A DNA stretch of 64,000 nt, from the NCBI GenBank assembly GCA_963800555.1, contig CAWDBH010000008.1, forward strand, positions 48,258 to 112,257, written 5' to 3'. Every line of letters begins with the position of its first letter. The stretch's first letter is position 1. Below the pieces are notes generated by a model. It ran no database searches and was not told where the DNA came from. It saw only the letters and a list, made by a program, of their open reading frames with translations. Both the position numbers and the translations under genes were made by a program. Below are positions 44,259 through 62,246 of the stretch, in pieces. This DNA comes from an uncultured Candidatus Micrarchaeota archaeon (lineage in GTDB: Archaea; Micrarchaeota; Micrarchaeia; Anstonellales; Bilamarchaeaceae).

Positions 44259-45452
44259 ATGAACAAGGTGGATATATACGACTTTCAGCGCAGGCTAGAG
44301 CAAGCGATGGATAAGCTCAGGAAAGATAATATAGGCACGGAAAATATTCGCGATATATCCTCATTCTCCAAAATCAAGCTTGCCAAGGGAGTATCGCCCG
44401 GAAGGGCTGCCAAGATAATCCATTGCCTCCGATTGTTGGCAAAACGGCTCAGAAAACCCTTCAGGCAAGCCACAAAAGACGATTTGATTGCCCTAGTCGG
44501 AAATCTCGAAAGAAGCGACTATGCTGAGCATACAAAGTACGACCTAAAGGTCATGCTGAAAATGTTCTACAAATGGCTCAAAGGAAATGATGAATCCGCC
44601 CCTCCGGAAATCGCTTGGCTGAAGAAAAGCAAGAAAAACCTAAACCATAAGCTCCCCGAAGACCTGTTAAGCGAAGACGAAGTCCTTCAGATGGTCGAAG
44701 CCGCGATAAACCCTCGCGATAAAACCCTGATTTTGGTATTATACGAGACTGGCTGCCGGATTGGTGAACTCCTATCCTTACAGATGAAAAACGTCAATTT
44801 TGACCAATATGGCGCGGTTCTGAGGGTAACTGGTAAGACTGGCGACCGGAGGGTTCGGATTATCAGTTCAGCGCCGGTTCTGGCCTCCTGGCTCAATGCC
44901 CACCCTAGGGCTAATGATCCGGACGCCTGGCTATGGTTCCAATACAAGAATAACAAGAAAACCGATAAGTGCCTGAGGCATGGAACGGTTTATGCGACGC
45001 TCAAGAAGATTGCCAAGAGGGCTGGAATCCAAAAGAAGGTATATCCTCACCTTTTCAGGCATTCAAGAGCTACGGCCCTGGCAAACAAGCTGACGGAAGC
45101 CCAGATGAAAGAACATTTCGGTTGGGTCCAGGGTTCTGAGATGGCGGCTACCTATGTTCATCTATCAGGCCGGGATGTGGATAACGCTTTCTTGAAAATA
45201 CATGGTCTGGTTCAAGCTGAGAACGCTCAAGAAGAAAAACTAAAGCTCAGAATTTGCCAGCGGTGCAAGGATCATAACTCTCCAAGCTCGAAGTTTTGCA
45301 CAAAATGCGGTTTGCCTCTGGACGAACAAACGATGGCTATGATTGAGAATAAGCGGGAGAAGAGCGACAATCTCATGAACAAGCTGATGGACGATGAGGA
45401 ATTCAAGAATTTTATGATGAAGAGGATTGCCGAATTGAGGCTAAATCTTTGA
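44259..45452 (+). CDS. tyrosine recombinase / integrase with a C-terminal zinc ribbon
   Basis: Catalytic R..HLFRHSRAT...Y pattern (R, H-x-x-R, Y) and a C-terminal CQRCK...CTKCG. Confidence 0.85.
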   Translation: MNKVDIYDFQRRLEQAMDKLRKDNIGTENIRDISSFSKIKLAKGVSPGRAAKIIHCLRLLAKRLRKPFRQATKDDLIALVGNLERSDYAEHTKYDLKVMLKMFYKWLKGNDESAPPEIAWLKKSKKNLNHKLPEDLLSEDEVLQMVEAAINPRDKTLILVLYETGCRIGELLSLQMKNVNFDQYGAVLRVTGKTGDRRVRIISSAPVLASWLNAHPRANDPDAWLWFQYKNNKKTDKCLRHGTVYATLKKIAKRAGIQKKVYPHLFRHSRATALANKLTEAQMKEHFGWVQGSEMAATYVHLSGRDVDNAFLKIHGLVQAENAQEEKLKLRICQRCKDHNSPSSKFCTKCGLPLDEQTMAMIENKREKSDNLMNKLMDDEEFKNFMMKRIAELRLNL

Positions 45453-46070: not shown

Positions 46071-46124
46071 GGTAATAAATCTGTTCGAAGTTATGATTAC
46101 GGTGCTATTTTGTCAGATGCCCAA

Positions 46125-47806
46125 ATGGAAGCCGCAAGGAAAGAAATCGAAGAACTCCTAGTGAAATTCAAGCGGGATTCCGAAAGCGGGCGAACCAAGA
46201 CATTGAAGGAGGAGAACACAAAGAAGGATTACATAACTCCTCTTTTCCGGGCCCTCGGATGGGATGTGGAAAACAAAAATGCATCCGACGAAGTAACAAA
46301 TGAAGACAAAATATCAAGAGGAAGGGTTGATTATGCATTCCGGCTGCATAGTATCCCAAAGTTCTTTCTTGAAGCAAAAGCCATGGATAAGGGGCTAGAT
46401 GAAGCCAAAGATGCGATTCAGGCGATTAACTACGCGTGGCATAAAGGCGCGACATGGGCCATTCTCACAGATTTCAAAACGCTCATTGTTTACAACGCAG
46501 AAGTGAAAGAGGAGAATCTTTCGAACTGCCGGTTCATACAGTTGACTTGCGATCAATATCTAGAGCAGTTTCATAGATTATGGTGGCTTTCAAAACCTGC
46601 ATTTCAAGAGGGACTGCTGGACAAGGAAGCCCTGAGTTGGGGCAAAAAACTTAGGAAGACAAAAGTCGGAGACCAATTGCTTCAAGAGCTCATGAGCTAC
46701 CGGATGGCGCTCTCCAAGAATATCCTGAAGAACAATTCCAGTAAAAACCTTTCTGAGGAGGAGATAGACGAAGCGGTACAGAGGATAATCGACCGCCTGA
46801 TTTTCATAAGGACAACCGAGGATAGGCTGGTAGAAGAACCGGTTTTACGACCTCTGGCTCGAGAATTCGATGATAAAAAACGAGGGAAACTTACTACTTC
46901 GCTCAATGAGGTTTATCTTAGATTTGATGATACCTACAATAGCCGGCTTTTCAGCTTCAATCCCAACGATAAAACGCAGAGACACCTATGCGAAAGCCTG
47001 GAAATAGACAATGAAGTTCTAATCGATATCATCAATGGCCTCTATCAGAGCAAAGACGGGCTAACACACTACGATTTTTCGGCAATAGATGCGGATGTCC
47101 TTGGGAATATTTACGAGCAATACCTTAGCCATATCCTAAGAAAAACCGAGAAACGGGCCAAACTGGAAAGCAAGGAGGCACATCGCAAAGAGCAGGGGAT
47201 TTACTATACTCCAACATACATAGTCGAATATATCATCAGAAATACTCTTGGCGAAGTCCTGAAGCGGAAGAAATCAGAAGAGGCCGATAAAATCAAAGTC
47301 CTTGACATGGCTTGCGGCTCCGGCTCTTTCCTTTTGAAGGCTTTTGATGTGATAGACGCGCATCACCAGAAGAATGATAAAGAATACGCCCAGACAAAGC
47401 TGGACCTTGAGAACGAGTCTGCCAGGATAACCAAGAAGATAAAGATACTGAAAAACAATATTTATGGGGTTGATCTAGATCCGAAAGCGATTGAAATAGC
47501 CCAGCTTAACCTCTTGCTCAAGGCGGCTGAAACCCGCCATCGCCTTCCAGATTTGAGGGAGAATATAAAATGCGGGAACTCAATAATTTCAGACCCGACA
47601 GTTGCTGGAGAGCGTGCCTTTGACTGGAACAGGGAATTCGAGGCGATTATGAAAGATGGGGGGTTCGATGTCATTATTGGCAATCCCCCTTATGTAGATA
47701 TCAAGCAGCTAGAACCAAGAATTGTTAATTATCTTTTCAATACATATCCGACAGTTGAAAATAGAATGAATCTATACTCTGTTTTTGTAGAGAATGGTCT
47801 AAAATT
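46125..47806 (+). pseudogene. Type IIG restriction-modification fusion enzyme (N-terminal PD-(D/E)xK nuclease plus gamma-class N6-adenine methyltransferase), N-terminal fragment, interrupted by an IS element
   Basis: N-terminal HsdR-N/Mrr-like nuclease region. GIYYTPTYIVEYII (motif X), VLDMACGSGSFL (motif I), NIYGVDLD and GNPPY (motif IV). The reading frame continues on the far side of the IS. Confidence 0.75.
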
Positions 47807-48838
47807 GGCTCTGTAGAAATGCTTAATTGATAAGTATGCCAATGGGTTTCATCGTCGAGGCTTACCAGGGCCTTGACTCCTCCCAGCGGCGAAATCCATG
47901 CAAAAGAGAACGTCAAAGTTAATTAGAGTAGCGGTTAGGGCCCAGCAGGCAGCCAAGTACGTGCTGCCTGAATATGGAAACAAATTCTCAAGAAAAGACT
48001 TCACTCAGCATCAGCTCCTAGCGATAGCTGTCCTGAAACAGAAGACTGACGAGGATTACAGGGATACTGTTGACGGCATTGGCAGCGACTTGATGCAAGC
48101 GATGGGTCTCACGAAGATACCTCATTTCACTACCCTCCAGAAGTTCATCAAGAGGCTGGACTCACAGGTATTGGATACCCTTATCGCAGTGGTCGCAATC
48201 CTCATCATAGGGGATCAATTGATCAGGGGAGCCGTCGTAGGGATAGACTCTTCAGGATATCCTGCTTCGCATGCCAGCAGCTACTTCGTGAGGAGGATAA
48301 AACGCAAGCCTACGCATAAGACGTTCCTCAAAGGTTCATTCGTTGGGGACCTGACAAATCAGGTCATCGTCTGCTGCAGGCTAAGGAATTTCCCGTCTCA
48401 TGATATCATTGATTTCAGGAGGCTGATGAAACGCGCCCTGATACTCTTGAAGAAGATTTCAGAGGTTCATGCTGACAAGGGGTACGATGGCAAGGATGAG
48501 ATCCTTCTCGTGGAGAAGCTTCTGAAGGCCGTGCCGTACATCAAGATCAAGGAAACCGACAGGCACAAATGCAAAAGCCAGATAAGGCGCAGGGTTTTGA
48601 ACAACTGGAATCGGCTCACCTTCGCTTTGAGGGGGCGGCAGCGCAACCTCATAGAAACAATCAACTCCGTTGTAAAGAGGGTCTTCGGAGACGCCCTCTA
48701 TAGCAAGGGCATCTGGATGCGGCGCAAGGAATTGAAGCTGAAGTACTTTGCCTACAACATTTACCGGTCAGTCCAGCTAGAGGAGATTTTTTGTTGCCTC
48801 GTCTTAAGCTGGACTTAAGAGAGGGTTTCTACAGAGCC
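47807..48838 (+). mobile_element. IS element, copy 1: 1032 bp, 13-bp perfect terminal inverted repeats (ggctctgtagaaa / tttctacagagcc), 8-bp target-site duplication ctaaaatt
   Basis: Identical base-for-base to copy 2 at 57818..58849. TSD at 47799-47806 and 48839-48846. Confidence 0.85.
47898..48818 (+). CDS. DDE transposase (IS4/IS5 superfamily)
   Basis: ...GIDSSGY...ADKGYDG...E pattern; 306 aa. Confidence 0.8.
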   Translation: MQKRTSKLIRVAVRAQQAAKYVLPEYGNKFSRKDFTQHQLLAIAVLKQKTDEDYRDTVDGIGSDLMQAMGLTKIPHFTTLQKFIKRLDSQVLDTLIAVVAILIIGDQLIRGAVVGIDSSGYPASHASSYFVRRIKRKPTHKTFLKGSFVGDLTNQVIVCCRLRNFPSHDIIDFRRLMKRALILLKKISEVHADKGYDGKDEILLVEKLLKAVPYIKIKETDRHKCKSQIRRRVLNNWNRLTFALRGRQRNLIETINSVVKRVFGDALYSKGIWMRRKELKLKYFAYNIYRSVQLEEIFCCLVLSWT

Positions 48839-49936
48839 CTAAAATTGCTAAAAAACGGGGGGTACTTCGGTTTCATCATTCCAAATTCTATCCTTTACAA
48901 CGAATCATACAGTAAGATACGAGACAGACTTTTGCAATCAACTTCATTGAAAAAAATTGTGCGGCTACCGGATAATGTATTCAAAGATGCAAAAGTAGAA
49001 ACGATAATTTTAATCTTCCAAAAAGGCAACCCGCATAAAAATATCTGCGAAGTGCTAATATATGATAGACTTGCAAATATCAACTCCATAACTATCGAAA
49101 CTTGCAAACAACATGTTTTATTTAATCAAGATACCTGGAACGAGGGGCAGAAAACGATAAACATCACCCTCAATAAGTCGTTTAGTGAGTTATTGAAGAA
49201 AATCGAAATGACTACTGTTCCTCTCGTTGAACTATGCGACTTTTCTCTTGGTCTTACCCCTTATGATAAATACAAAGGACACACACAAAAACAAATAGAA
49301 GAGCGTGTGTTTCACTCTTCAACGAAAAAGAACGAAACTTTCAAACCGCTCTTATCTGGGGAGAATATAGTGAGGTATGGCATTTTTTGGGATAAGAAAG
49401 AGTACATTAGCTACGGTAGTTGGCTAGGTGCAGCTAGAGAAAAAAGATTTTTCACCGAACCTCGGATTGTAGTTAGGCAGATTATTAGTGGCAAGCCACT
49501 GAGGATCTACGCGGGGTATAGCGAGGATGAATTGTACAATGCACAAATCGGCTTTAATCTATTGCCAAAAGACAAAGCACAGATCCAGATTAAGTATGTG
49601 CTGGCAATTTTAATTTCGAAGTTAATGACTTTTTACCACCGAGAGAGGTATTTAGACCCATCAAAAAATCTTTTCCAGAAAATATTAATAGCAAACGCTA
49701 AGAGATTCCCTATAAAACTCGCACCTTCTAGCGAACAGCAAAAAGTTGTAAATTTAGTCGATAAACTACTCGCTTTGAAGAAACGATTATTTGATCTAGG
49801 CGATAAACAAACCGAAGAATCAGCCAAACTTGAAAAGGAGATTGCCGAACTCGACCGCAAGATTGACGAGCTGGTTTTTGATCTTTACGGTCTAACAGCG
49901 GAAGAACGGAAAATCGTTGAAAAAGCGATGAAGTAG
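48839..49936 (+). pseudogene. Type IIG restriction-modification enzyme, C-terminal fragment (remaining methyltransferase motifs plus target-recognition domain), downstream of IS copy 1
   Basis: Continues ...FVENGLKL|LKNGGYFGFIIPNSILYN...; the track ORF 48791..49936 starts inside the IS right end. Confidence 0.7.
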
Positions 49937-49941
49937 AAGTC

Positions 49942-50274
49942 TTAATGAACTAACAAGATAATGGCAGCAACGACAATTGAGCAGTATGCCCAACTGAGCC
50001 AATAATAAATCTGGGGGAGACTGTTACCAATCGCATATGCAGCGATACCGACCACCCCCATAATTAGTCCGATATTTGAATACCAGACTAAGAGGTCGCT
50101 CGGGTTCGATAACGATATCACAAATAGATTTATCGCCAGCGTATTACAAAATGTCGAGGTTCGCCCCACGAACTGCTTTTCTACAAGATAGCCTACGATA
50201 AACAGGGATAAGGCGGGTAACAATCTTAGAAGCGTGTCTGGCAAAATATTTATCCAAAGTGAAGACATACTCAT
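49942..50274 (-). CDS. hypothetical membrane protein
   Basis: 110 aa, 3-4 TM. Confidence 0.4.
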   Translation of the reverse strand: MSMSSLWINILPDTLLRLLPALSLFIVGYLVEKQFVGRTSTFCNTLAINLFVISLSNPSDLLVWYSNIGLIMGVVGIAAYAIGNSLPQIYYWLSWAYCSIVVAAIILLVH

Positions 50275-50278
50275 CCCT

Positions 50279-50635
50279 TCAAGCTATCGGTAGTCCCTTC
50301 GGTGTCAGTGCATCTGCAAGCAAGTGGCTGAGATAAGCTGCTGCAAGCGAAGCGGCTGCCGCTTTTTGCTCCGCTGAGGTTGTGCTCTGCCCCCACGTCT
50401 CTTTGGCCATATGGGTAACAATCCCGGCTGCGGTCAAGCTGTGCGCGAATGACCGGTGGTTAGGTCCATAAGCTGGCTCGATAATGTCTGGGAGTACCGC
50501 TACTCCAGCCCCCATGACGCCCCATCCCACTGCATTCCCCAAGTCAACCGTTTCACCCTGCGCTCGCTTAGCGGCAACATATGTTCCAAAACCAAACAGA
50601 GCTCCGAGAAGGAGATGTTCATTGCAATTTGACAT
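50279..50635 (-). CDS. DUF457 (YdjM-like) membrane-associated metal-dependent hydrolase
   Basis: ...LPDIIEPAYGPNHRSFAHSLT... Confidence 0.5.
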   Translation of the reverse strand: MSNCNEHLLLGALFGFGTYVAAKRAQGETVDLGNAVGWGVMGAGVAVLPDIIEPAYGPNHRSFAHSLTAAGIVTHMAKETWGQSTTSAEQKAAAASLAAAYLSHLLADALTPKGLPIA

Positions 50636-50640
50636 CCGTC

Positions 50641-50979
50641 TCACCTCTTCTTCCTGCTCCAATTGCCAAGGAACTGCCATCTTTGCTGGCCCTCGCTTCT
50701 ATGGACGGAAACTGCAACTCCGCCCCTTTCCTTTGCCAAGGCCCGGAGATCCCTACGTCCATCGCTATCCAGGCGAGCCCCACCGCTCTTGACTTGGACA
50801 TAATACTTCACACCATCTTTCTTTGCATATATGTCCGCAGGTCCACGGCTTCCAGCGCTCAAACGGATATTCTCGTATCCCTTATCCGCAAGATCACGCG
50901 CCACTTTTCCTTCCGCGATTCTTCCAGAACGATATCGGTTTATCATTCCACCATCCCGTTGCTTATGGCAACTTTGCAA
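50641..50979 (-). CDS. Hjc-like PD-(D/E)xK nuclease (archaeal Holliday-junction-resolvase fold)
   Basis: GRIAEGKVARDLADKGYENIRLSAGSRGPADIYAKKDGVKYYVQVKS matches the Hjc pattern G..E..V...L...G...R...S...DI.A.K.G....V.VKS. Confidence 0.5.
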   Translation of the reverse strand: MQSCHKQRDGGMINRYRSGRIAEGKVARDLADKGYENIRLSAGSRGPADIYAKKDGVKYYVQVKSGGARLDSDGRRDLRALAKERGGVAVSVHRSEGQQRWQFLGNWSRKKR

Positions 50980-51040: not shown

Positions 51041-51346
51041 ATGGATATTCGTGAGCTGGTTCGGGACGCCCAGGCTCTCAATTCCAAATTGATATCCGTT
51101 CCACGGCTTCTCATCCTTTTCTCATTAGAAGGTCTTGGACGTGATGGGGCTGCCTATAGGGAATTGAAAGCAGGGTTGGAGATGGATGATGGGTTGCTGT
51201 ATTCAAACGTGGATGCCCTCAAGGAGATGGGGTATGTCAAAGAAAAGGACATTAGATTGGAGAACAAAGAGATGACGTCGTATTATATTACCGAGGAAGG
51301 GAAGGAAGCCCTTAGCAGTGCCAGAGCATGGTTGAAGAAAATCTGA
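51041..51346 (+). CDS. winged-helix transcriptional regulator
   Basis: 101 aa, wHTH-like; translationally coupled (TGATG) to the next gene. Confidence 0.5.
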   Translation: MDIRELVRDAQALNSKLISVPRLLILFSLEGLGRDGAAYRELKAGLEMDDGLLYSNVDALKEMGYVKEKDIRLENKEMTSYYITEEGKEALSSARAWLKKI

Positions 51347-51891
51347 TGGACGGTGGCAACATGGGGGAGCTGAGAAAAGTTATTGCTTGTATACGAGAGT
51401 TGGACAAAAAAATGAAGGTTGACAATTTTCAGGATAAACTAGTGATCCAGAAGACGGTTTGTCTTCTTGAATTGCTTGGTTTCGATATGAAATACGGATT
51501 TTCTATGTATGTCCGGGGACCGTATTCTCCGGCATTAACAGAGGATTTATATCAAAATAAAGAAGCAGTCGAGAACCTCAGGACCGATTATGTGCCTAGT
51601 GGCAAAGAGAAATCTATGATTTCCGTGATAGGCGAAGCCAGCAATCATTTTGAGCCTTCGATGCTGGAAATCATGGCAACATATGCCTTCCTCATAAAAA
51701 GGAGCTCTTATGGAGGGAAAGAAGCCATCACAGAATTGAAAAGAATTAAACCATTCTATTCCGAAACCAAGATTGCGGTGGGTGTTTCAAGGGCGAAGCA
51801 GCTTTTCCCGGCAACTGAAAAAGAGGTTCGGGATATGAAAGCTGAATTCAAGGAGATCGAAGCAGCATCGACATCTGATAACAAATATTGA
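51346..51891 (+). CDS. Panacea-domain (DUF4065, SocA-like) putative antitoxin
   Basis: ...KLVIQKTVCLLELLGFDMKYGFSMYVRGPYSPALTEDLY... matches the DUF4065 core. Confidence 0.6.
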   Translation: MDGGNMGELRKVIACIRELDKKMKVDNFQDKLVIQKTVCLLELLGFDMKYGFSMYVRGPYSPALTEDLYQNKEAVENLRTDYVPSGKEKSMISVIGEASNHFEPSMLEIMATYAFLIKRSSYGGKEAITELKRIKPFYSETKIAVGVSRAKQLFPATEKEVRDMKAEFKEIEAASTSDNKY

Positions 51892-51901
51892 TAGTGGAAA
51901 A

Positions 51902-52240
51902 ATGGCGGGCCATGTTAAAGCAGAGATTTGGCAGGCAGACTTCAGCGGCTCCAGAGGGCATGAACAGAAGAAAGAGCGTCCATGCATTATTTGGAGGGAT
52001 TTGGATCATCTTGGAATGGCCGTGGTTATACCGCTAACTGGTTCTCTTGAAAGGGACAATCTGCCCCATACCCTTCGTATTGACCCATCCACCAAGAACG
52101 GACTGGAAAAGGAAAGCATTATCCTTGTTTTTCAGATAACCGCGATAGACAAGTGCAGATTGTTAAAGAAAGTGGGGGTACTGGACGACGGAGAAATTGA
52201 AACTGTGGCTGCCCTCTTGAAAGACCTTTTACGGATTTAG
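51902..52240 (+). CDS. MazF/PemK-family endoribonuclease toxin
   Basis: ...GHEQKKERPCIIW...GMAVVIPLTGS... motif. Confidence 0.7.
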   Translation: MAGHVKAEIWQADFSGSRGHEQKKERPCIIWRDLDHLGMAVVIPLTGSLERDNLPHTLRIDPSTKNGLEKESIILVFQITAIDKCRLLKKVGVLDDGEIETVAALLKDLLRI

Positions 52241-52654: not shown

Positions 52655-54031
52655 ATGAACCGGGAAGAACTGCTAGACCTAATAAAGACGGGCGAAGGTT
52701 ACTGCCTTGACTTCAAGGAGCGGCTACCCTTGGATTTAGGCAAGGACATATGCGCGTTCATCAATGGTTCTGGAGGCAAGATAATCCTCGGAGTGCGCGA
52801 TGATGGTTCACCGTCAGGCTATATCCTGGACAATACGGATGAGGCAAGGATAAATTCGATGGCGAGAAATCTTGATCCTTCGGTCAGGGTGACGGTTGAG
52901 AGGGTGGGCGAATTCGCAGTTATCCACATACCCGAAGGTGAAAACAAGCCGCATTCATTGTCCGGGCGGTTCTACCTGCGGATCGGTTCCACTTCCCAGC
53001 AGCTTGAGCGTGACGAGATACGGGATTTTTTCCAAAAGGAGCGGCTCGTGCGCTTCGATGAGAAACCGAACATGGAATTCGATTTCGAGCATGATTTTTA
53101 CAAGCTGAAATTCGACGATTACCTCAGAAGAGCGAAATTGACGCCGCTTCAGGATCAAAGGGATACGCTCGTGAACCTCAATCTCCTGGACAGCGGATAT
53201 ATGAGGAACGCAGGGGTGCTCTTCTTCACCCAGAGGATAACCAAATTCTTTATGAGTGCCACTGTGGTTTGTGTGCTTTACCAAGGTACTGACAAGCACC
53301 AGATACTTGACAGAAAAGAGTTCAACGCAGATCTCCTCTCCAATTTCGAGAATGCGTTCGTTTATACTTGCTCCAAGCTCAACACGAATTTCATTATAAA
53401 GGCAGAACGCACCAATCGACTTGAGCTTCCGGAAGAAGCGCTGCGAGAGGCGCTTATCAATGCCATCGTTCACCGCGACTATTTTTCTACCGGACAAGTC
53501 CAGGTCGATATTTACCTTGACAGGGTGGATATTTCAAACCCCGGAGGACTCGTTTCTGGGCTTGAGAAGAAAGACTTAGGAAAAAGAAGTATGCCCCGTA
53601 ATCCCTTGCTGATGGACCTCCTGCTTCGCATCGACAAAGTGGAAAAAGTAGGCTCCGGCATAAGGCGGATACGAAAGGCTATGGAAGAATACGGGCTTAA
53701 GGCGAAATTCGACATAAGTCAAGGTTTCTTTTCGGTTGTTTTCCCAAGAACCCCCCAAGGCGCTTATCAGGGTATCCCCCAAAATGCCCCCGGAAGTACC
53801 CCCCCAGTGACCCCCCTAGTTACCCCCCCAGTTGGACTTACCCCCCTAGAGCAAAAAATATACGATGAGATAAAAAACGATCCGAAAGCATCCAGCAAAA
53901 TACTTTCAACCCGACTTTCAATCAGCAAGGACACGGTCAAAGAGTACCTGGAAAAACTCAAGGCTAAAGGTGTCATCCGCAGGGTCGGCAGGACAAGCAG
54001 TGGGCACTGGGAGATCATTAAAAGAGAGTGA
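52655..54031 (+). CDS. AlbA_2 (Schlafen-like divergent AAA) plus HATPase_c_4 ATP-binding protein with a C-terminal wHTH
   Basis: N-terminal ...CLDFKE...ICAFINGSGGKIILGV... (AlbA_2); ...LREALINAIVHRDY...VDIYLDRVDISNPGGL (HATPase-like); C-terminal HTH. Confidence 0.7.
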   Translation: MNREELLDLIKTGEGYCLDFKERLPLDLGKDICAFINGSGGKIILGVRDDGSPSGYILDNTDEARINSMARNLDPSVRVTVERVGEFAVIHIPEGENKPHSLSGRFYLRIGSTSQQLERDEIRDFFQKERLVRFDEKPNMEFDFEHDFYKLKFDDYLRRAKLTPLQDQRDTLVNLNLLDSGYMRNAGVLFFTQRITKFFMSATVVCVLYQGTDKHQILDRKEFNADLLSNFENAFVYTCSKLNTNFIIKAERTNRLELPEEALREALINAIVHRDYFSTGQVQVDIYLDRVDISNPGGLVSGLEKKDLGKRSMPRNPLLMDLLLRIDKVEKVGSGIRRIRKAMEEYGLKAKFDISQGFFSVVFPRTPQGAYQGIPQNAPGSTPPVTPLVTPPVGLTPLEQKIYDEIKNDPKASSKILSTRLSISKDTVKEYLEKLKAKGVIRRVGRTSSGHWEIIKRE

Positions 54032-54111
54032 TGAAGTTGATGGTAAGTCTGAGATGATGCGGGGGATGTGTTAGCAGGTGAAACAAAGAATCGCCAAAGC
54101 GGGAAGCCTAA

Positions 54112-56028
54112 ATGAGGGGGTTGAATATGATAACATACAAAACAGAGCCATATGAAGAACAGACACATATGAAACACAAAGTATTTCAGGAGTATTTTGA
54201 CAACTGGGTTAAGATACTTGGGAGTGCAAATAACCTAAATTATATAGATGGTTTCTCTGGTGCTGGGGCATATAAAGATACCAAGACCGGCAAGGTATTT
54301 TTTGGTTCGCCAGTTCTTGCAGCGCAAACTATACAAGCGAATAAAAAGGAGAAAACAACAACTCTCGTGTTCATTGATAAAAAACAAGAGAGTCTGAACA
54401 ATGTTAAAAAAATACTAACTGAGAGTGGATTAACGGATTTAACTATTCATTACATAAACGACGATTTTGATAAAACGATTAATTCACTTCTAGCGGAATC
54501 AAAAAATCTAGCCCCAACATTCGTTTTTATAGATCCATTTGGATACAAGATAAACTATCAAACTTTAAAACGAATAATGAGTATAAACAAATCAGAAATT
54601 TTGCTCAATTTTATGTTCAATTCCGTCAGTAGATTCATGAGTGATAAAAAGTTGGATAAGACAATTACAGAACTTTTCGGAACAGATGAATGGAAAGAAA
54701 TAGTCAAACTCGAAGGGATACCTAGAGAGGAAGGAATACGCAAATTATATCGCCAACAACTTAAGAAGATTTCTAAGTTCGTAATGCCATACCGGTTAGA
54801 GTTTCCAGACAAAAAACGCACTTATTACTACATATTTCATCTAACCAACCACGTCAAGGGCTGTAGTATAATGAAGTCGAGTTTTGCCAAATATGCTCAT
54901 GGAAGGACCGAATGGCTGGGAACAGATGCAGATCAGATAAAGTTAACCGAGATTGATGGGATAAAAGATGAATCGCTCGAAAATTATTTCATAACGAAAT
55001 ATAGTGGAAAGAGACCATCATTCGCGAAGATAATTGAAGAGAACATTGATGAAACTGATTATCTTGAAAGCGATATGACCAAAGCAATTCGAAAACTAGA
55101 GGATAGTAACCGAGTATACATAGAACGATTTCCAAAACTTACTGAAAAAAGAAAACAAATGCGCGAAAGCTTAGAAAAAAATGATATTATACATTTCAAT
55201 GTTTTTCCGAGCATAGAAAGAAAGACACTTTTATACAAGACTAAAGTCGAATATGGTAACTATACTATAAATCATGTTTTGGGTTGTGCGCATGGATGTG
55301 CGTATCCCTGTTATGCAATGATGATGGCACAAAGATATGGACGCGTAAAGAATTACGATGACTGGATCCACCCGCGCCTTGTATCCAATAGCCTTGAAAT
55401 TTTGGACAGAGAAATACCAAAATATAAGAACGATATCGACTTTGTTCATCTGTGCTTCACCACCGATCCATTCATGTATGACGCTAAGAACAAGAGAACG
55501 TACAAAGAAATCGAAAAAATGACGTTGAGTATAATAAAAAAATTGAATAACAACGGAATCAAGTGTACAGTGCTTACAAAAGGTCTTTACCCCAAAGAAT
55601 TAACTAAAGATGAATTCTTGAGGGATAACGAGTATGGAATAACAATAGTTTCGCTTGATGCCAAGTTCAGAAAAGAATTTGAGCCATTTTCAGCGCCATT
55701 TGAACAAAGAATTGCCGCGCTTAAACATTTACATGACAACAGATTGAAAACTTGGGTGAGCATTGAACCATATCCAACTCCTAACATAATCAAGCAAGAC
55801 CTAAGCAAGTTGCTTGAAACATTATCGTTCGTCGACAAGATAATTTTCGGAAAAATGAACTATAATGCATCAATAAAAGCATATGAAAACAACGAAGAAT
55901 TCTATAAGAAGTGCAGCCAGACTGTGACGGATTTCTGCACAAAAAAGAGGATAAAGCTCCATATAAAAGAAGGAACACCGACTAACTACTGCAATCAAAC
56001 GGAAGAAATATTTAAGGGTGAAGAATAA
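54112..56028 (+). CDS. fusion protein: N-terminal TcmP-like domain plus C-terminal radical-SAM-like domain with a non-canonical Cx3Cx3C motif
   Basis: N-terminal ...NYIDGFSGAGAYKD...FGSPVLA...FIDPFGY (assigned to the three-Cys-motif partner protein TcmP family from recalled family descriptions, not a search). C-terminal ...HVLGCAHGCAYPCYAM... with downstream SPL/photolyase-like radical-SAM core blocks. Confidence 0.6.
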   Translation: MRGLNMITYKTEPYEEQTHMKHKVFQEYFDNWVKILGSANNLNYIDGFSGAGAYKDTKTGKVFFGSPVLAAQTIQANKKEKTTTLVFIDKKQESLNNVKKILTESGLTDLTIHYINDDFDKTINSLLAESKNLAPTFVFIDPFGYKINYQTLKRIMSINKSEILLNFMFNSVSRFMSDKKLDKTITELFGTDEWKEIVKLEGIPREEGIRKLYRQQLKKISKFVMPYRLEFPDKKRTYYYIFHLTNHVKGCSIMKSSFAKYAHGRTEWLGTDADQIKLTEIDGIKDESLENYFITKYSGKRPSFAKIIEENIDETDYLESDMTKAIRKLEDSNRVYIERFPKLTEKRKQMRESLEKNDIIHFNVFPSIERKTLLYKTKVEYGNYTINHVLGCAHGCAYPCYAMMMAQRYGRVKNYDDWIHPRLVSNSLEILDREIPKYKNDIDFVHLCFTTDPFMYDAKNKRTYKEIEKMTLSIIKKLNNNGIKCTVLTKGLYPKELTKDEFLRDNEYGITIVSLDAKFRKEFEPFSAPFEQRIAALKHLHDNRLKTWVSIEPYPTPNIIKQDLSKLLETLSFVDKIIFGKMNYNASIKAYENNEEFYKKCSQTVTDFCTKKRIKLHIKEGTPTNYCNQTEEIFKGEE

Positions 56029-57817
56029 CAAAATTGAACTGGTAAATGGCCCTGTTAATATTTGGAATATAATAAAGCAATCCACTGGTGAAACAATGAG
56101 AAAACTGGCTCAAGATACAAAACTCTTCAAACCTAAATTCGATCAAGTCAAATATAATCAATTTTTACAGGTAATATCTGGGATATACTCCCTTCTTTCC
56201 TTAAAACTTAAGGATAACGTATCGCTCTCTTCAGTTCTTGAAAATAAGTCCCCTCTGAAAACAAATCTAAAGCCTGATTTTGTCGGAAAGCCGGAATTCT
56301 TTACACGTGAAAACGTTATTGATCTGCTCTTGAATTGCTTAGGATACACTCTGCAACATCGAGCTGGAGAAAGTGATCTTAAGCAAATCTTTGGTAGCAA
56401 ATATCCAGATTATAAGCTGATAACCAGTCCGACTTTACAGATTTTAGTCGAAGCAGAGCCTCTGAACGAGGACATTTACAGTACACCAAACGCTGGGTTG
56501 AATCAGGTCTATGTTTGGCTTGAATCTAAGCGAAGTAAAACGGATTATGGTATCGCAACTAACGGTTTCGAATGGGTACTTGTACAATATCTTGTTGAAG
56601 CTAACAAAAAAATCGAAATTAAAAAAGTTGATTTAACCCCCTTTTTCTTAAAATTATTTGGAAAGCAAGTGTCTGATTCGACTCTAAAAGAAATCTTTCT
56701 TGATTTTATTTCCTACTTTTCCATCGAAACCTCCGAATCTGCGATAAGTGGATTTGTTAAAATTCAAAATGATAAACGAGAAGAAATCAGTAAGAAGTTT
56801 TATGAGAGGTATCTAGAAGCAATCTTTGGTGTGAATAGAGAGGGTAAAAAAATATACCATCATTCTCTTTTTGATGCTATCCAGAATGTACCGAATAATG
56901 AAGAAAGAAAGATAATCGCTCAGCTTACAGTGAACAGATTAATCTTCATCAAATTTATTGAAAGTAAGGGGTGGATAAACAACAATCCTCGTTTTCTTAA
57001 GGATCTCAAGGAGCAATACGCAAAAAGCCCCACTCCGGCCGGCTTTTTCAAAACCTATCTTGAGCCTCTTTTCTTCTTGGCACTGAATAACCCCAACACA
57101 AAGAAACCACATCCATACGAGAATGTTCGCTACCTTAACGGAGGTCTTTTCAGAAAGGATAGAATAGAAGAAGCAAATGCATCCTATGACATTTCTAACG
57201 ATGAATTACTGCGGATTATAGATTTCCTCGAAGACTATGATTTCAAGATTAAAGGAAGTACTACCCACGAAGGTAAAGAAACACTTGATCCTGAAATCCT
57301 GGGTTATATCTTCGAAAGAACGGCAAATCACGAAGCAGGTGCATATTATACACCAGAACCAGTTACTAGATATATTGCAGATCAAACAATTGAATCACTT
57401 GTCATAGAACGAATCAATGCCTATCTTAGGGAAAAGGGGGAAAAAGAAAAATCTGACTTATATTCAATATTTGGAGAAAATGGGCTGGACATAGATCATT
57501 TAAGAAACCTTTATGAAAAACGTCAGATTCTGAGCATAAAAATTCTTGATCCTGCATGTGGTAGTGGGGCATTTTTCATTCCTGTAATACGAAAATTGAT
57601 GGATACTTCATAAGCGTTTTTATAAAGAAATCAACAGAATTGAACCAAATCAGTACCAGCTCCAGAAAAGAATTGTCGAAGATAATATCTATGGTGTAGA
57701 TATAAACGAAGAAGCAATAGAAATTGCTAAACTGCGTTTGTGGCTTGACCTTCTTGATTCTGTTGAGGCTATCGAAGAAGTTGATGCGTTACCCAATATT
57801 GAATATAACATAATGGC
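56018..57817 (+). pseudogene. second Type IIG restriction-modification fusion enzyme, N-terminal fragment; frameshift near 57610 and IS insertion at 57818
   Basis: N-terminal nuclease domain, AYYTPEPVTRYIAD (motif X), ILDPACGSGAFF (motif I). After the stop at 57613 the +1 frame continues NIYGVDINEEAIEIAKLRLWL...LPNIEYNIMA up to the IS. Confidence 0.7.
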
Positions 57818-58849
57818 GGCTCTGTAGAAATGCTTAATTGATAAGTATGCCAATGGGTTTCATCGTCGAGGCTTACCAGGGCCTTGACTCCTCCCAGCGG
57901 CGAAATCCATGCAAAAGAGAACGTCAAAGTTAATTAGAGTAGCGGTTAGGGCCCAGCAGGCAGCCAAGTACGTGCTGCCTGAATATGGAAACAAATTCTC
58001 AAGAAAAGACTTCACTCAGCATCAGCTCCTAGCGATAGCTGTCCTGAAACAGAAGACTGACGAGGATTACAGGGATACTGTTGACGGCATTGGCAGCGAC
58101 TTGATGCAAGCGATGGGTCTCACGAAGATACCTCATTTCACTACCCTCCAGAAGTTCATCAAGAGGCTGGACTCACAGGTATTGGATACCCTTATCGCAG
58201 TGGTCGCAATCCTCATCATAGGGGATCAATTGATCAGGGGAGCCGTCGTAGGGATAGACTCTTCAGGATATCCTGCTTCGCATGCCAGCAGCTACTTCGT
58301 GAGGAGGATAAAACGCAAGCCTACGCATAAGACGTTCCTCAAAGGTTCATTCGTTGGGGACCTGACAAATCAGGTCATCGTCTGCTGCAGGCTAAGGAAT
58401 TTCCCGTCTCATGATATCATTGATTTCAGGAGGCTGATGAAACGCGCCCTGATACTCTTGAAGAAGATTTCAGAGGTTCATGCTGACAAGGGGTACGATG
58501 GCAAGGATGAGATCCTTCTCGTGGAGAAGCTTCTGAAGGCCGTGCCGTACATCAAGATCAAGGAAACCGACAGGCACAAATGCAAAAGCCAGATAAGGCG
58601 CAGGGTTTTGAACAACTGGAATCGGCTCACCTTCGCTTTGAGGGGGCGGCAGCGCAACCTCATAGAAACAATCAACTCCGTTGTAAAGAGGGTCTTCGGA
58701 GACGCCCTCTATAGCAAGGGCATCTGGATGCGGCGCAAGGAATTGAAGCTGAAGTACTTTGCCTACAACATTTACCGGTCAGTCCAGCTAGAGGAGATTT
58801 TTTGTTGCCTCGTCTTAAGCTGGACTTAAGAGAGGGTTTCTACAGAGCC
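57818..58849 (+). mobile_element. IS element, copy 2: identical 1032 bp, same terminal inverted repeats, 8-bp target-site duplication ataatggc
   Basis: TSD at 57810-57817 and 58850-58857. Confidence 0.85.
57909..58829 (+). CDS. DDE transposase (IS4/IS5 superfamily), identical to copy 1
   Basis: Protein identical to the 47898..48818 product. Confidence 0.8.
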   Translation: MQKRTSKLIRVAVRAQQAAKYVLPEYGNKFSRKDFTQHQLLAIAVLKQKTDEDYRDTVDGIGSDLMQAMGLTKIPHFTTLQKFIKRLDSQVLDTLIAVVAILIIGDQLIRGAVVGIDSSGYPASHASSYFVRRIKRKPTHKTFLKGSFVGDLTNQVIVCCRLRNFPSHDIIDFRRLMKRALILLKKISEVHADKGYDGKDEILLVEKLLKAVPYIKIKETDRHKCKSQIRRRVLNNWNRLTFALRGRQRNLIETINSVVKRVFGDALYSKGIWMRRKELKLKYFAYNIYRSVQLEEIFCCLVLSWT

Positions 58850-60442
58850 ATAATGGCTGGAAATAGCCTTATCGGTACTGACGTGATTCCAGAAATGGCG
58901 CGGGCAGATTTCTATACCTATTATCATCCTACCCGATTTGAACAAATTATTCAGGTATATCCTGACTTGAAAATCGAAACAGACGCACTTATTGGCAAGT
59001 CTACTCAATTCAATATGACCTTTAATGACCTCTTCTTACTTAGGAATAAATTAATCACCAAATACCGCAGCGAGACTCATCCTATATATGCCACAAGATT
59101 AAGAGATATTATCGAGCAAATCTCCGAAAAATTCCGTTTTGAACTCTCAAGGGTATATTTCCATAATGCTCTGAGAATAGAAAAAACTGAAGATTTAAAT
59201 TCAGCAATAATCAAGTTTAAACCCTTCAACTGGATTATGGAATTCTCAGATGTTTTCGAAAAAGGCGGATTTGATGCAGTAATTGGAAATCCCCCGTATG
59301 ATGTTATTTATTCAGGTGAGAATCCTTTAGATGTTAAAACCTTCAAAACGATTTATACAACGGCTGAGTATAATCCGAATTTATTCTGTTTATTCGTAGA
59401 CCGTTCATTATCATTATTAAATCAAAAAGGACTTTTAGGATTTATTATCCCAGATACTATATTAACAAATAAATATTTTGGTAACCTTAGAAGAAAGATT
59501 TTATCAATTTCGAGTATTCTCCAAATTTTAGACTTAAGTAGTGGCGTTTTTCCAGAAGCTATAGTGGATACAATAATTTTTATTCTGAAAAAAGAAGTTA
59601 TACAAGATAATGAAATATTTATAGGTTATAATATAACAAGTAGTGAAGCTATCGCATCAAGAAACTTCAAAAGTAAAAAAATGTTTCAGAAAGAATTTAT
59701 TAATTCCAATAACAACGAGTTTAATATTTATTTTGATAGCGGACTCGAACCTTTAAAAAATCAGATATGGCTGAATTCGGTAAAAATTGAAGAAATTGCA
59801 AATATAAAACGAGGCTTAGTTACCAAAGATAATTCTAAATTTGTGTACACTGACAAAACAGTCGATAAATGCTCTGATAGCTCAAAATTAAAACGTGTTT
59901 TAATTGGTGGAGATGCAAGTCGATACCTATTACATTATAGCGGTAATTATGTTCTTTTTGATGCTTCTGCAAAAGGCGGTGGGTGCTGGGATCGAGAGAT
60001 TTACGAAAATAAGGAAAAGATACTAATCGCATTAATTACAGGAGGAATGAATTATAGAATTAATGCCACTTATGATTCAACCAAATTTTATGCATTACAA
60101 AATTATAACGTGCTTATAGTAACTGATTCTAAATTTTCAACAAAATACGTTTTAGGAATCATAAATTCAAAACTAATATCAAACTATTATGAATTATTTT
60201 TCAATGATAAAAATATAAAAAGAGTGCAACTATTGAGTTTACCCATAAAAGTTGCAACTGACGCAGAGCAACAAAAAATTGCTAATTTAGTCGATAGGCT
60301 CCTTTCGTTAATGTCTGATTGCAATGTAGAAAAGCATAAAACAGAAATTAAAAAAGCGAATGAAGAAATCGATGAGTGTGTTTACAAATTATACGGCATA
60401 ACTGAGACTGAAAGGAAATTAATCGAAAATAATCTGGCGTAG
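58850..60442 (+). pseudogene. second Type IIG restriction-modification enzyme, C-terminal fragment (motif IV GNPPY plus target-recognition domain)
   Basis: ...IMAGNSLIG...FDAVIGNPPYDVIYS...; the track ORF 58802..60442 starts inside the IS. Confidence 0.7.
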
Positions 60443-61818: not shown

Positions 61819-62246
61819 GGTATTTGAGGCGTTCCGCCCCCTTCGTACATAATGCGTTAAAAACTCTATCAATCCATATTGATATAGAAACGGTTATGCT
61901 CATCTTGGGAGAGTGCCGGAGTAGTCTAACGGGCTGGTTTTGCAAACCAGTGGCTTAGTGCCTTCGTGGGTGCAAATCCCACTTCTTATTGCATTTAGCG
62001 TCAGCCAGCAAGGAAGCGAAGCGATGCCGCGACCAGCGCACCGACCACGCTCACGGTGAGCGCACTGCGACACAATTTCTTTATCCTTAATGCGGGATCG
62101 GATTAGCGGCCGGCCCCGCAGGCGGGGCACGTACGGAAGAGCGCTGCCGGGCGCCCTGGGAAAAGATTGATTCTGAGAGAGCCGAGGATACGATTCCACC
62201 GGGTCATTCACCACTGAGGCTTCCCTCTTAGCTATGTAAGTTCGTA

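What the first reader, a model, noticed from the sequence alone, without database searches (positions are those of the whole stretch)
52655..56028. Candidate undescribed defence module: AlbA_2/HATPase sensor-like protein plus a TcmP-radical-SAM fusion, embedded between two restriction-modification genes
Two co-oriented genes 81 bp apart sit in the middle of an AT-rich integrase-bearing island. The 638-aa product fuses a TcmP-like N-terminal domain to a radical-SAM-like domain whose cluster motif is the unusual CAHGCAYPC (Cx3Cx3C rather than Cx3Cx2C). In other genomes these are, as far as I recall, separate adjacent genes of unknown function found near restriction systems. The upstream gene combines AlbA_2 (Schlafen-like), HATPase_c and wHTH domains, an architecture recurrent in defence islands. 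Fusion, neighbourhood and low GC together suggest a mobile anti-phage system with a radical-SAM effector.
Basis: partly seen in the sequence, partly recalled or inferred. Interest (0 to 1): 0.75.

Follow-up and report, generated by a model that had tools for sequence, protein, structure and literature searches.

The report
Fused TcmP–radical-SAM gene beside restriction genes

Summary
Both genes, all their domains and the CAHGCAYPC motif are at the stated coordinates.

- **Family already catalogued.** The N-terminal half is NCBIfam TIGR04474 (TcmP). It also matches PADLOC's unvalidated candidates PDC-M30A and PDC-M41A.
- **Fusion is common.** More than 80 protein clusters are fused, and 16 of 80 genome loci are fused against 52 split.
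- **AlbA_2/HATPase_c_4/HTH gene is not a conserved partner.** It occurs near the pair in 4 of 79 loci, on varying sides and strands. Its GC is 49%, against 35% for the fusion.
- **Real local partner.** This is the downstream type IIG restriction-modification gene RM2, which has the same low GC and overlaps the fusion's end by 11 nt. RM2 and the upstream RM1 are each split by identical IS5-family copies.
- **Operon in close relatives.** The nearest relatives sit in a tight three-gene operon: Eco57I/MmeI-type methyltransferase, TcmP–rSAM, then a PLD nuclease fused to an SNF2 helicase.

My best reading is a radical-SAM DNA base-modifying accessory of restriction-modification-like defence. No function has been tested, and I found no published functional study.

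The parts
54127..56028 (+). TcmP-wHTH-radical-SAM fusion gene. It is 633 aa from ATG 54127; the alternative ATG 54112 gives 638 aa.
   Evidence: ORF. It is 100% identical to database protein P0001. GAGGGGG lies 6 nt upstream of 54127. Every residue that is invariant among the ten aligned homologues, this copy included, is therefore present here.
54157..54894 (+). TcmP domain: a class I Rossmann methyltransferase fold closest to RlmJ. Motifs are xKH, D-x-F-x-G-x-G-x-Y, GSP and D-P-F-G-Y (54532-54546).
54973..55116 (+). Linker domain with three helices, wHTH-like. It is absent from the shorter (about 585-593 aa) fused homologues.
   Evidence: Weak PF22560 GMT-wHTH hit, 0.0047, residues 288-335. 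Several homologues carry precomputed PF22560 hits. Model helices span 279-326. The region is a gap in P0085, P0104 and P0088.
55204..56025 (+). Radical-SAM domain with a spore-photoproduct-lyase-like fold.
55285..55311 (+). Three-Cys motif CAHGCAYPC (Cx3Cx3C), lying between the first strand and first helix of the barrel.
   Evidence: Translation. Conserved in 194 of 199 members. In the model it lies in the loop between strand 34-36 and helix 51-58.
56018..57817 (+). RM2, 5' part: a type IIG (MmeI/Eco57I-like) restriction-modification gene. Its GTG start overlaps the fusion's end by 11 nt. It is frameshifted by an extra A at 57605.
   Evidence: The independent assembly L001 lacks the extra A. 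GC is 35.8%, like the fusion.
57818..58849 (+). IS5-family insertion sequence, copy 2. It is 1032 bp with 13-bp inverted repeats and an 8-bp target duplication ATAATGGC (second copy at 58850-58857).
   Evidence: NF033579 IS5 transposase 3e-36. Ends and duplications.
58858..60442 (+). RM2, 3' part: Eco57I methylase domain plus TaqI_C specificity domain.
   Evidence: Removing the IS, one target duplication and the extra A gives an open 1127-aa frame.
52655..54031 (+). Neighbouring gene, not part of the module: an AlbA_2 + HATPase_c_4 + wHTH protein.
   Evidence: Pfam. GC is 48.9% against 34.5-36% for the fusion. It is a neighbour in only 4 of 79 loci.
46110..49936 (+). RM1: a type IIG restriction-modification gene (HSDR_N nuclease, Eco57I methylase, TaqI_C). 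It is split by IS copy 1 (47807-48838, target duplication CTAAAATT).
   Evidence: Excision in silico restores 928 aa. The product is 51% identical to the type IIG gene that directly precedes a TcmP/rSAM pair in L064.
44259..45452 (+). XerA-like tyrosine integrase with a C-terminal zinc ribbon, at the left edge of the low-GC island.

Best explanation
**What is shown.**
- The gene at 54127-56028 is an intact, fused member of the TcmP / three-Cys radical-SAM pair family.
- Its N-terminal domain has an RlmJ-like SAM-methyltransferase fold.
- That domain keeps the SAM-binding motifs, the catalytic-site Lys and the motif IV Asp (DPFGY where RlmJ has DPPY).
- A small wHTH follows.
- The C-terminal domain is a spore-photoproduct-lyase-like radical-SAM barrel with a family-specific Cx3Cx3C motif.

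**What is inferred.**
- The protein binds DNA.
- The TcmP domain flips out a base, probably adenine or N6-methyladenine, into its pocket.
- The radical-SAM domain uses a [4Fe-4S]/SAM-derived 5'-deoxyadenosyl radical to alter that base chemically.
- The result would be a DNA modification that serves as a mark in restriction-modification-like immunity.
- In this genome its functional partner is the overlapping downstream type IIG gene RM2, with which it was acquired as one low-GC unit, not the upstream AlbA_2 gene.
- That system is now decayed: RM2 carries an IS insertion and, in this assembly but not in L001, a frameshift.
For: **Family and fold.**
- TIGR04474 9.4e-56 and PF04055 above its cut-off.
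- The motifs are colinear with E. coli RlmJ: LKH/MKH, DTHAGAGRY/DGFSGAGAY, YPGSP/FGSP, IDPPYE/IDPFGY.
- The Cys motif is kept in 194 of 199 members.

**The pairing is the conserved unit.** Of 80 loci, 68 have TcmP fused to (16) or adjacent to (52) this radical-SAM protein.

**Link to DNA methyltransferases.**
- An Eco57I/MmeI-type gene is directly adjacent on the same strand, with a gap of 1-42 bp, in 9 of 79 loci. It is the most frequent neighbour family.
- These loci are scattered across the family, and their methyltransferases share only about 23-32% local identity with RM1 and RM2, apart from one RM1 orthologue at 51%.
- In the closest relatives the operon is methyltransferase, TcmP-rSAM, PLD-SNF2, with 0-2 bp gaps or an 8-nt overlap. 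Loci: L108, L110, L115, L118; L109 and L003 have inserted genes.

**Local evidence.**
- The fusion overlaps RM2's start by 11 nt.
- The fusion and RM2 share 31-36% GC, against 49% for the AlbA_2 gene.
Against: - No biochemical or genetic data exist for any family member, and I found no paper on its function.
- About 85% of the sampled loci have no adjacent methyltransferase, so the pair must also work alone.
- The closest structural relatives of TcmP (RlmJ, Trm1) act on RNA, not DNA.
- Sequence-level homology to RlmJ is not significant: hhalign E 0.061 over motif I only.
- A Cx3Cx3C radical-SAM cluster site has no characterised precedent that I could find. Cluster binding and SAM cleavage are therefore assumed.
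- Type IIG enzymes already methylate their own sites, so the need for a second modifying enzyme is unexplained.
Confidence: 0.4

Rival explanations
1. **Radical-SAM defence effector or sensor**. The TcmP domain inspects flipped bases. On foreign DNA, whether unmodified or wrongly modified, the radical-SAM domain damages the DNA by hydrogen abstraction. It would act alone like a type IV enzyme, or together with the PLD-SNF2 nuclease.
For: - PADLOC lists TcmP as the candidates PDC-M30A and PDC-M41A.
- Neighbourhoods are rich in restriction-modification, AbiE, PIN, SNF2/PLD, SIR2, GmrSD and pAgo genes.
- The gene sits between the methyltransferase and nuclease genes of an operon in close relatives.
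- It is rare in viruses: 25 of 2.9 million IMG/VR contigs, and only 1 of 50,697 phage records with a close match (56% identity over 89% of the query), the other 14 matches being weak or partial.
Against: - No validation exists; PDC entries are 'guilt-by-embedding' candidates.
- A stand-alone DNA-damaging enzyme with no evident immunity partner, as in most loci, would need intrinsic discrimination of foreign DNA.
- The TcmP SAM-binding motifs are conserved, which fits a catalyst better than a mere reader.
Confidence: 0.2
2. **DNA repair enzyme carried as cargo of mobile islands.** Like spore photoproduct lyase, it would reverse a base lesion or adduct by radical chemistry, with TcmP as the lesion-flipping subunit.
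For: - The best structural match is spore photoproduct lyase.
- The nearest NCBIfam radical-SAM models are PA0069 and Rv2578c.
- Sources annotate stand-alone members as 'DNA repair photolyase'.
- Many loci have housekeeping neighbours.
Against: - No hit to a spore photoproduct lyase model was returned.
- The motif is not the canonical spore photoproduct lyase one.
- The family is patchy, in about 0.24% of species (443 of 185,579). It is island-borne and operonic with restriction-modification genes, which is unlike a core repair function.
- A conserved SAM-methyltransferase-like partner is not expected for lesion reversal.
Confidence: 0.15
3. **RNA (rRNA or tRNA) modifying enzyme spread horizontally.** It might confer resistance to a ribosome- or tRNA-targeting toxin or antibiotic, in the manner of Cfr.
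For: - The top structural relatives of TcmP are the RNA methyltransferases RlmJ and Trm1.
- The gene is carried on mobile islands.
Against: - The tight operons are with DNA methyltransferases and PLD-SNF2 nucleases.
- A DNA-acting enzyme (spore photoproduct lyase) is clearly the best radical-SAM match.
- A wHTH domain is present.
Confidence: 0.1
4. **Two-gene AlbA_2 + TcmP-rSAM defence module**, as originally proposed. The AlbA_2/HATPase_c_4/wHTH protein would sense infection or regulate the radical-SAM effector.
For: - Both genes are on the same strand, 80-95 nt apart, and I saw no AT-rich promoter-like stretch in the spacer.
- AlbA_2-domain genes recur at low frequency near family members: L037, L044, L058, L075 and L115.
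Against: - Only 4 of 79 loci have one, at distances of 158 to 7621 nt, on either side and either strand.
- GC is 48.9% against 35%.
- None of the ten protein look-ups of closest fused relatives (11 loci) has it upstream in an operon.
Confidence: 0.05

Closest known systems
TcmP / three-Cys-motif protein pairs (NCBIfam TIGR04474; PADLOC candidates PDC-M30 and PDC-M41)
   Same: The N-terminal half scores 189.6 bits against a cut-off of 53. It also matches PDC-M30A (8.8e-30) and PDC-M41A (3.4e-15). It is joined to a protein with three conserved Cys.
   Different: - Here the two proteins are fused with a wHTH linker.
- The three-Cys partner is a PF04055/spore-photoproduct-lyase-like radical-SAM protein. 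It is not the DUF5131-type PDC-M41B, which it hits only weakly (1.6e-4 over about 55 residues).
- No function is known for any of them.
RlmJ (23S rRNA m6A2030 methyltransferase, PDB 6qe5/2oo3)
   Different: - Motif IV is DP-x-G-[YF], not DPPY.
- There is no significant sequence-profile match.
- The substrate is unknown.
- It is always paired with a radical-SAM protein.
Spore photoproduct lyase and the related uncharacterised radical-SAM proteins PA0069 / Rv2578c / 'mobile pair B'
   Different: - The motif is Cx3Cx3C with an inserted Pro, not Cx3Cx2C.
- All NCBIfam radical-SAM scores are far below their cut-offs (39 against 410 bits, for example).
- There is no PDB match by sequence.
DISARM / type ISP-like restriction-modification systems (Eco57I-type methyltransferase plus SNF2 helicase plus PLD nuclease)
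   Same: The operons of the closest relatives combine a DrmMI/PglX-like methyltransferase with a PLD-SNF2 protein. That protein hits DrmD, BrxH and 'HKD+Snf2' models.
   Different: - I saw no DrmA- or DrmB-like gene in those operons.
- PLD and SNF2 are fused into one protein.
- TcmP-rSAM is the third component.
- The window itself has no PLD-SNF2 gene.

Membership tests
TcmP (NCBIfam TIGR04474) | Score above the curated cut-off | tested here: met
   189.6 bits against 53; residues 16-261 cover profile positions 1-262 of 263.
TcmP (NCBIfam TIGR04474) | Partnered with a protein carrying a conserved three-Cys motif | tested here: met
   It is fused in this gene. Of 80 loci, 68 have TcmP fused to or adjacent to the radical-SAM protein. 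The motif is conserved in 194 of 199 members.
Radical SAM superfamily (PF04055) | Pfam score above the gathering threshold | tested here: met
   36.3 bits against 29.5.
Radical SAM superfamily (PF04055) | Canonical Cx3Cx2C cluster motif after the first strand | tested here: not met
   The motif is Cx3Cx3C (CAHGCAYPC) at the canonical position, between the first strand and first helix. The spacing is invariant across the family.
Radical SAM superfamily (PF04055) | Partial TIM-barrel fold of radical-SAM enzymes | tested here: met
Radical SAM superfamily (PF04055) | Binds a [4Fe-4S] cluster and reductively cleaves SAM | not testable with these tools
   This needs anaerobic purification, EPR/UV-vis spectroscopy and a 5'-deoxyadenosine assay.
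Spore photoproduct lyase | Match to a spore photoproduct lyase sequence model and the canonical motif | tested here: not met
   No NCBIfam spore photoproduct lyase hit at E <= 0.01. No PDB sequence hit with the family profile at E <= 1. The similarity is in fold only.
RlmJ family (m6A methyltransferases) | Sequence-profile match and the DPPY catalytic motif | tested here: not met
   No RlmJ-family model among the Pfam hits at E <= 0.01. hhalign E 0.061 over 19 columns. Motif IV reads DPFGY. Fold and motif order do match.
PADLOC candidate systems PDC-M30 / PDC-M41 | Match to component A | tested here: met
   PDC-M30A 8.8e-30 (residues 13-335); PDC-M41A 3.4e-15.
PADLOC candidate systems PDC-M30 / PDC-M41 | Match to the partner component | tested here: inconclusive
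   Only PDC-M41B, at 1.6e-4 over residues 376-430. The spore-photoproduct-lyase-like partner seems not to be modelled in PADLOC v2.
PADLOC candidate systems PDC-M30 / PDC-M41 | Demonstrated anti-phage activity | not testable with these tools
   PDC systems are described as not experimentally validated (PMC10855318).
Type IIG restriction-modification (the neighbours RM1 and RM2) | Single polypeptide with nuclease, Eco57I/MmeI-type gamma-class methyltransferase and specificity domains | tested here: inconclusive
   The domains are present (HSDR_N, Eco57I, N6_Mtase, TaqI_C). Both genes are split by an IS, and RM2 is also frameshifted. RM2's nuclease-like motif reads D...EAE instead of D...ExK (direct reading).
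DISARM | Core genes drmA (helicase), drmB (DUF1998) and drmC (PLD), as I recall the definition | tested here: not met
   I saw no separate DrmA- or DrmB-like gene in the window or in the related operons. Only a DrmMI-like methyltransferase and a PLD-SNF2 fusion occur in relatives.
AlbA_2/HATPase_c_4/HTH proteins (the upstream neighbour) | AlbA_2 + HATPase_c_4 + C-terminal HTH architecture | tested here: met
   All three Pfam domains are above their cut-offs.

The most novel reading that the evidence does not exclude
TcmP plus the three-Cys radical-SAM protein could be the catalytic core of a previously unrecognised radical-SAM-dependent DNA chemistry, either a new base modification or radical-based restriction. 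It would work with type IIG-like methyltransferases and PLD-SNF2 nucleases. The three-gene operon seen in the closest relatives would then be a new class of restriction-modification-like immunity. It would also be the first functional radical-SAM site with Cx3Cx3C spacing.
Probability: 0.3. Interest if true: 0.85.

Novelty: new member of a known kind. Interest (0 to 1): 0.5.

Why it matters
The family is small but widely spread.
- It forms 134 clusters at E <= 1e-30 among 1.84 billion representative proteins.
- It occurs in 443 of 185,579 species, mostly uncultured archaea and bacteria known only from metagenome-assembled genomes.
- It has an invariant, non-canonical radical-SAM motif and no known function.

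This work gives it a concrete, testable frame: an RlmJ-like base-flipping domain joined to a spore-photoproduct-lyase-like radical-SAM domain, repeatedly wired into operons with DNA methyltransferases and PLD-SNF2 nucleases.

If confirmed, it would add a new DNA modification or restriction chemistry and a new cluster-binding motif to the radical-SAM superfamily.

For this particular window the copy is one ordinary member, sitting next to restriction-modification genes that have been inactivated by IS insertions.

Tried and rejected
- **Profile comparison with E. coli RlmJ.** Only motif I aligned (E 0.061), so homology rests on fold and motif order.
- **PDB search with the family profile.** No solved relative by sequence.
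- **Fold libraries.** The afdb50 library was unavailable. The viral fold library gave only generic radical-SAM hits.
- **Literature.** Searches on TcmP, three-Cys-motif, DUF5131, PF07505, TIGR04474, COG1533, PDC-M30/M41, radical SAM + SNF2 + type IIG, RlmJ + radical SAM and CX3CX3C found only passing mentions. I found no functional study. Ophion, a validated radical-SAM defence system, has a different architecture.
- **att repeats.** I searched for repeats flanking the island between 41.9-46.2 kb and 60.4-62.3 kb. Nothing longer than 11 nt was found.
- **Unusual family fusions.** Pfam scans of eight family representatives (362-1002 aa, most of them longer than a stand-alone radical-SAM protein) gave no informative extra domains.
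- **Source organism.** Exact look-up returned no name. Intron-bearing tRNAs and a XerA-like integrase indicate an archaeon.
- **Promoter scan.** The bacterial sigma-70 promoter scan was not used, because the genome is archaeal.


Full report
**1. Observation.**

ORFs 52655-54031 (+, 458 aa) and 54112-56028 (+, 638 aa) are present.
- The first carries SLFN_AlbA_2, HATPase_c_4 and HTH_24, all above the Pfam cut-offs.
[quoted passage not shown] It matches Pfam Radical_SAM above threshold over residues 386-569.
- It also has sub-threshold hits to 'radical SAM mobile pair B', PA0069 and Rv2578c.
- The likely true start is ATG 54127 (633 aa). This start is identical to database protein P0001 and has a GAGGGGG ribosome-binding-like site 6 nt upstream.
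- CAHGCAYPC is encoded at 55285-55311.
- The low-GC island (44-61 kb), the integrase (44259-45452) and the flanking Eco57I-type restriction-modification genes are all real.
- The genome is archaeal, judging by intron-containing tRNAs and a XerA-like integrase.

**2. The family.**

The fusion is not unique.
- A protein search returned 337 relatives. Of the best 120 clusters, 84 are 540 aa or longer, meaning fused. They come from Asgard, Thermoplasmatales, Bathyarchaeota, Elusimicrobiota, Deferribacter, Desulfurobacterium and Caldimicrobium, among others. Several are already named TcmP by NCBI or JGI.
- In one genome per GTDB species, 443 of 185,579 species encode a relative.
- Among 80 fetched loci, 16 are fused, 52 have TcmP and the radical-SAM protein as adjacent separate genes, and 12 show no TcmP. 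TcmP plus this radical-SAM protein is therefore the conserved unit.
- An exhaustive HMMER scan of 1.84 billion representatives found 134 clusters at E <= 1e-30 and 675 at E <= 1e-10. The family is small but widely spread.
- The motif C-x-H-G-C-x-[YFW]-P-C-[YF]-A occurs in 194 of 199 members.
- The radical-SAM half is much more conserved than the TcmP half.

**3. What the domains are.**

*N-terminal domain.*
- The AlphaFold2 model of the N-terminal 345 residues is confident (pLDDT 90.7).
- Read directly, TcmP and E. coli RlmJ share colinear motifs:

| RlmJ | TcmP |
|---|---|
| VLKH | HMKH |
| YLDTHAGAGRY | YIDGFSGAGAY |
| YPGSPLIA | FGSPVLAA |
| ILIDPPYE | VFIDPFGY |

- They also share acidic residues at the ends of strands 2 and 3.
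- The invariant TcmP residues (K16, D41, G45, G47, G60, S61, D136, P137, G139; numbering from ATG 54127) fall in these motifs.
- Profile-to-sequence comparison is not significant. The relationship is therefore structural plus motif-level.
- Residues of about 284-331 form a three-helix wHTH-like linker. It gives a weak PF22560 hit and is missing from the shorter fused homologues.

*C-terminal domain.*
- The model has pLDDT 89.2.
- The three Cys lie in the loop between the first strand and first helix, where radical-SAM clusters normally bind.
- I found no characterised precedent for Cx3Cx3C spacing.

**4. Who the partner is.**

*The AlbA_2 gene is not the partner.*
- An AlbA_2/HATPase_c_4 homologue lies within 8 kb in only 4 of 79 other loci, on either side and either strand. 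One more AlbA_2-only gene is in L115.
- In the window the AlbA_2 gene has 48.9% GC (GC3 57%). The fusion has 34.5-36% and RM2 31-36%.

*Type IIG methyltransferase genes are the recurrent neighbour.*
- The fusion's end overlaps the GTG start of RM2 by 11 nt.
- Across the family, neighbours are very variable. They range from housekeeping genes to type I restriction-modification, AbiE, PIN, NACHT and UvrD genes.
- The single most frequent neighbour is an Eco57I/MmeI-type methyltransferase gene. It is directly adjacent on the same strand, with a 1-42 bp gap, in 9 of 79 loci.
- These loci are scattered over the radical-SAM similarity space. Their methyltransferases share only about 23-32% local identity with the window's RM1 and RM2.
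- One of them (L064) is 51% identical to the window's RM1.

*Closest fused relatives (53-61% identity).*
- Ten protein look-ups, plus L002 and L003 from the genome scan, show a tight operon. Its order is methyltransferase (about 1200 aa), an optional 180-aa ORF that looks like a PD-(D/E)xK nuclease, TcmP-rSAM, then PLDc_2 + SNF2 helicase (about 1050 aa).
- Gaps are 0-2 bp, or an 8-nt overlap. Loci: L108, L110, L115, L118. L109 and L003 have inserted genes.
- L002 has the methyltransferase plus the fusion. L111 has an RM1-like gene upstream.
- L113, L116 and L117 have neither partner.
- L028 and L044 carry PLD-SNF2, methyltransferase and TcmP-rSAM in another order.
- PADLOC sees the methyltransferase as generic type IIG/DrmMI-like and the PLD-SNF2 as 'HKD+Snf2'/DrmD-like. 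I saw no PADLOC match that covers all three genes as one system.

**5. State of the locus.**

- Two identical 1032-bp IS5-family elements split RM1 (at 47807) and RM2 (at 57818). They have 13-bp inverted repeats and 8-bp target duplications, CTAAAATT and ATAATGGC.
- Removing each IS and one duplication restores open frames of 928 and 1127 aa.
- RM2 also needs removal of an extra A at 57605. That base is absent from an independent assembly of the same sequence, L001.
- The TcmP-rSAM gene and the AlbA_2 gene are intact.

**6. Mechanism.**

*Shown:* domain identities, folds, motif conservation, gene linkage and composition.

*Inferred:*
- The protein acts on DNA.
- The RlmJ-like domain flips a base into its pocket.
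- The spore-photoproduct-lyase-like domain performs radical chemistry on that base, giving a modification used in restriction-modification-like self/non-self marking.

*Rivals:*
- a radical-SAM restriction effector or sensor;
- a lesion-reversal repair enzyme;
- an RNA-modifying enzyme;
- the original AlbA_2 two-gene module, which the neighbourhood and GC data argue against.

*Main weaknesses:*
- There are no experimental data for any member.
- Most loci lack a methyltransferase neighbour.
- The nearest TcmP structural relatives act on RNA.

**7. Comparison and novelty.**

- The gene is a bona fide TIGR04474 member and a Pfam radical-SAM member with a non-canonical motif.
- It is not a spore photoproduct lyase, and not an RlmJ by sequence criteria.
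- TcmP is already listed by PADLOC as unvalidated candidates, described as such in PMC10855318.
- The only mentions of TcmP I found are in gene tables (PMC12445080 and PMC12429752).
- The window's gene is therefore a new member of a known but uncharacterised kind.
- What may be new is the functional frame and the three-gene operon in relatives. I rate overall interest at 0.5.
- The most novel reading is a new radical-SAM DNA chemistry at the core of a new restriction-modification-like system. I give it a probability of about 0.3 and an interest of 0.85 if true.

Noticed in passing
window 47807-48838 and 57818-58849: Two 100% identical 1032-bp IS5-family elements each interrupt a different type IIG restriction-modification gene. 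They have 13-bp inverted repeats (GGCTCTGTAGAAA) and 8-bp target duplications (CTAAAATT, ATAATGGC). Excision in silico restores 928-aa and 1127-aa reading frames, which points to recent inactivation of both restriction systems.
   Followed up: yes
window 57605: An extra A frameshifts RM2 in the window. It is absent from an independent Logan assembly of the same region (L001, otherwise identical over 5.5 kb). This is either a real polymorphism or an assembly error.
   Followed up: partly
L108 2459-11213; L110 2789-12050; L115 2768-12044; L118 2-6036; L109 3424-14469; L003 183-10857: The closest relatives carry a conserved three-gene operon: an Eco57I/MmeI-type methyltransferase (about 1200 aa), TcmP-rSAM, and a PLDc_2+SNF2 helicase (about 1050 aa). 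Gaps are 0-2 bp. Some have a small ORF between genes that looks like a PD-(D/E)xK nuclease. I saw no PADLOC v2 match that covers all three genes as one system.
   Followed up: partly
window 46110-49936 compared with L064 5060-7789: The window's RM1 is 51% identical over 908 residues to the type IIG gene that directly precedes (1-bp gap) a split TcmP/rSAM pair in a Woesearchaeota genome. In the window, RM1 lies 6.3 kb upstream of the fusion.
   Followed up: no
window 51041-52240: Three genes lie on one strand: an HTH_34 regulator (51041-51346), an uncharacterised 187-aa ORF (51328-51891) and a MazF/PemK toxin (51902-52240). This is probably a toxin-antitoxin cassette. Its GC (42-47%) is like the AlbA_2 gene's and unlike the fusion's.
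   Followed up: no
window 56300-56480 (RM2 residues of about 100-155): The N-terminal nuclease-like motif of RM2 reads PDY...ILVEAEP (D...E-A-E). RM1 has the D...E-A-K arrangement. RM2 may therefore have lacked a canonical PD-(D/E)xK lysine even before the IS insertion.
   Followed up: no
window 61907-61990: An 84-nt tRNA-like gene sits at the right edge of the low-GC island. ARAGORN calls it Ala(tgc), and its Rfam score is only 37 bits. I found no att-type direct repeat with the left edge.
   Followed up: partly
window 49942-50979, minus strand: A small block on the opposite strand lies between RM1 and the toxin-antitoxin genes, in a local GC rise to about 0.50. It holds a 110-aa hydrophobic ORF, a YdjM-like membrane protein (50279-50680) and a 112-aa Mrr_cat-like ORF (50641-50979).
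   Followed up: no
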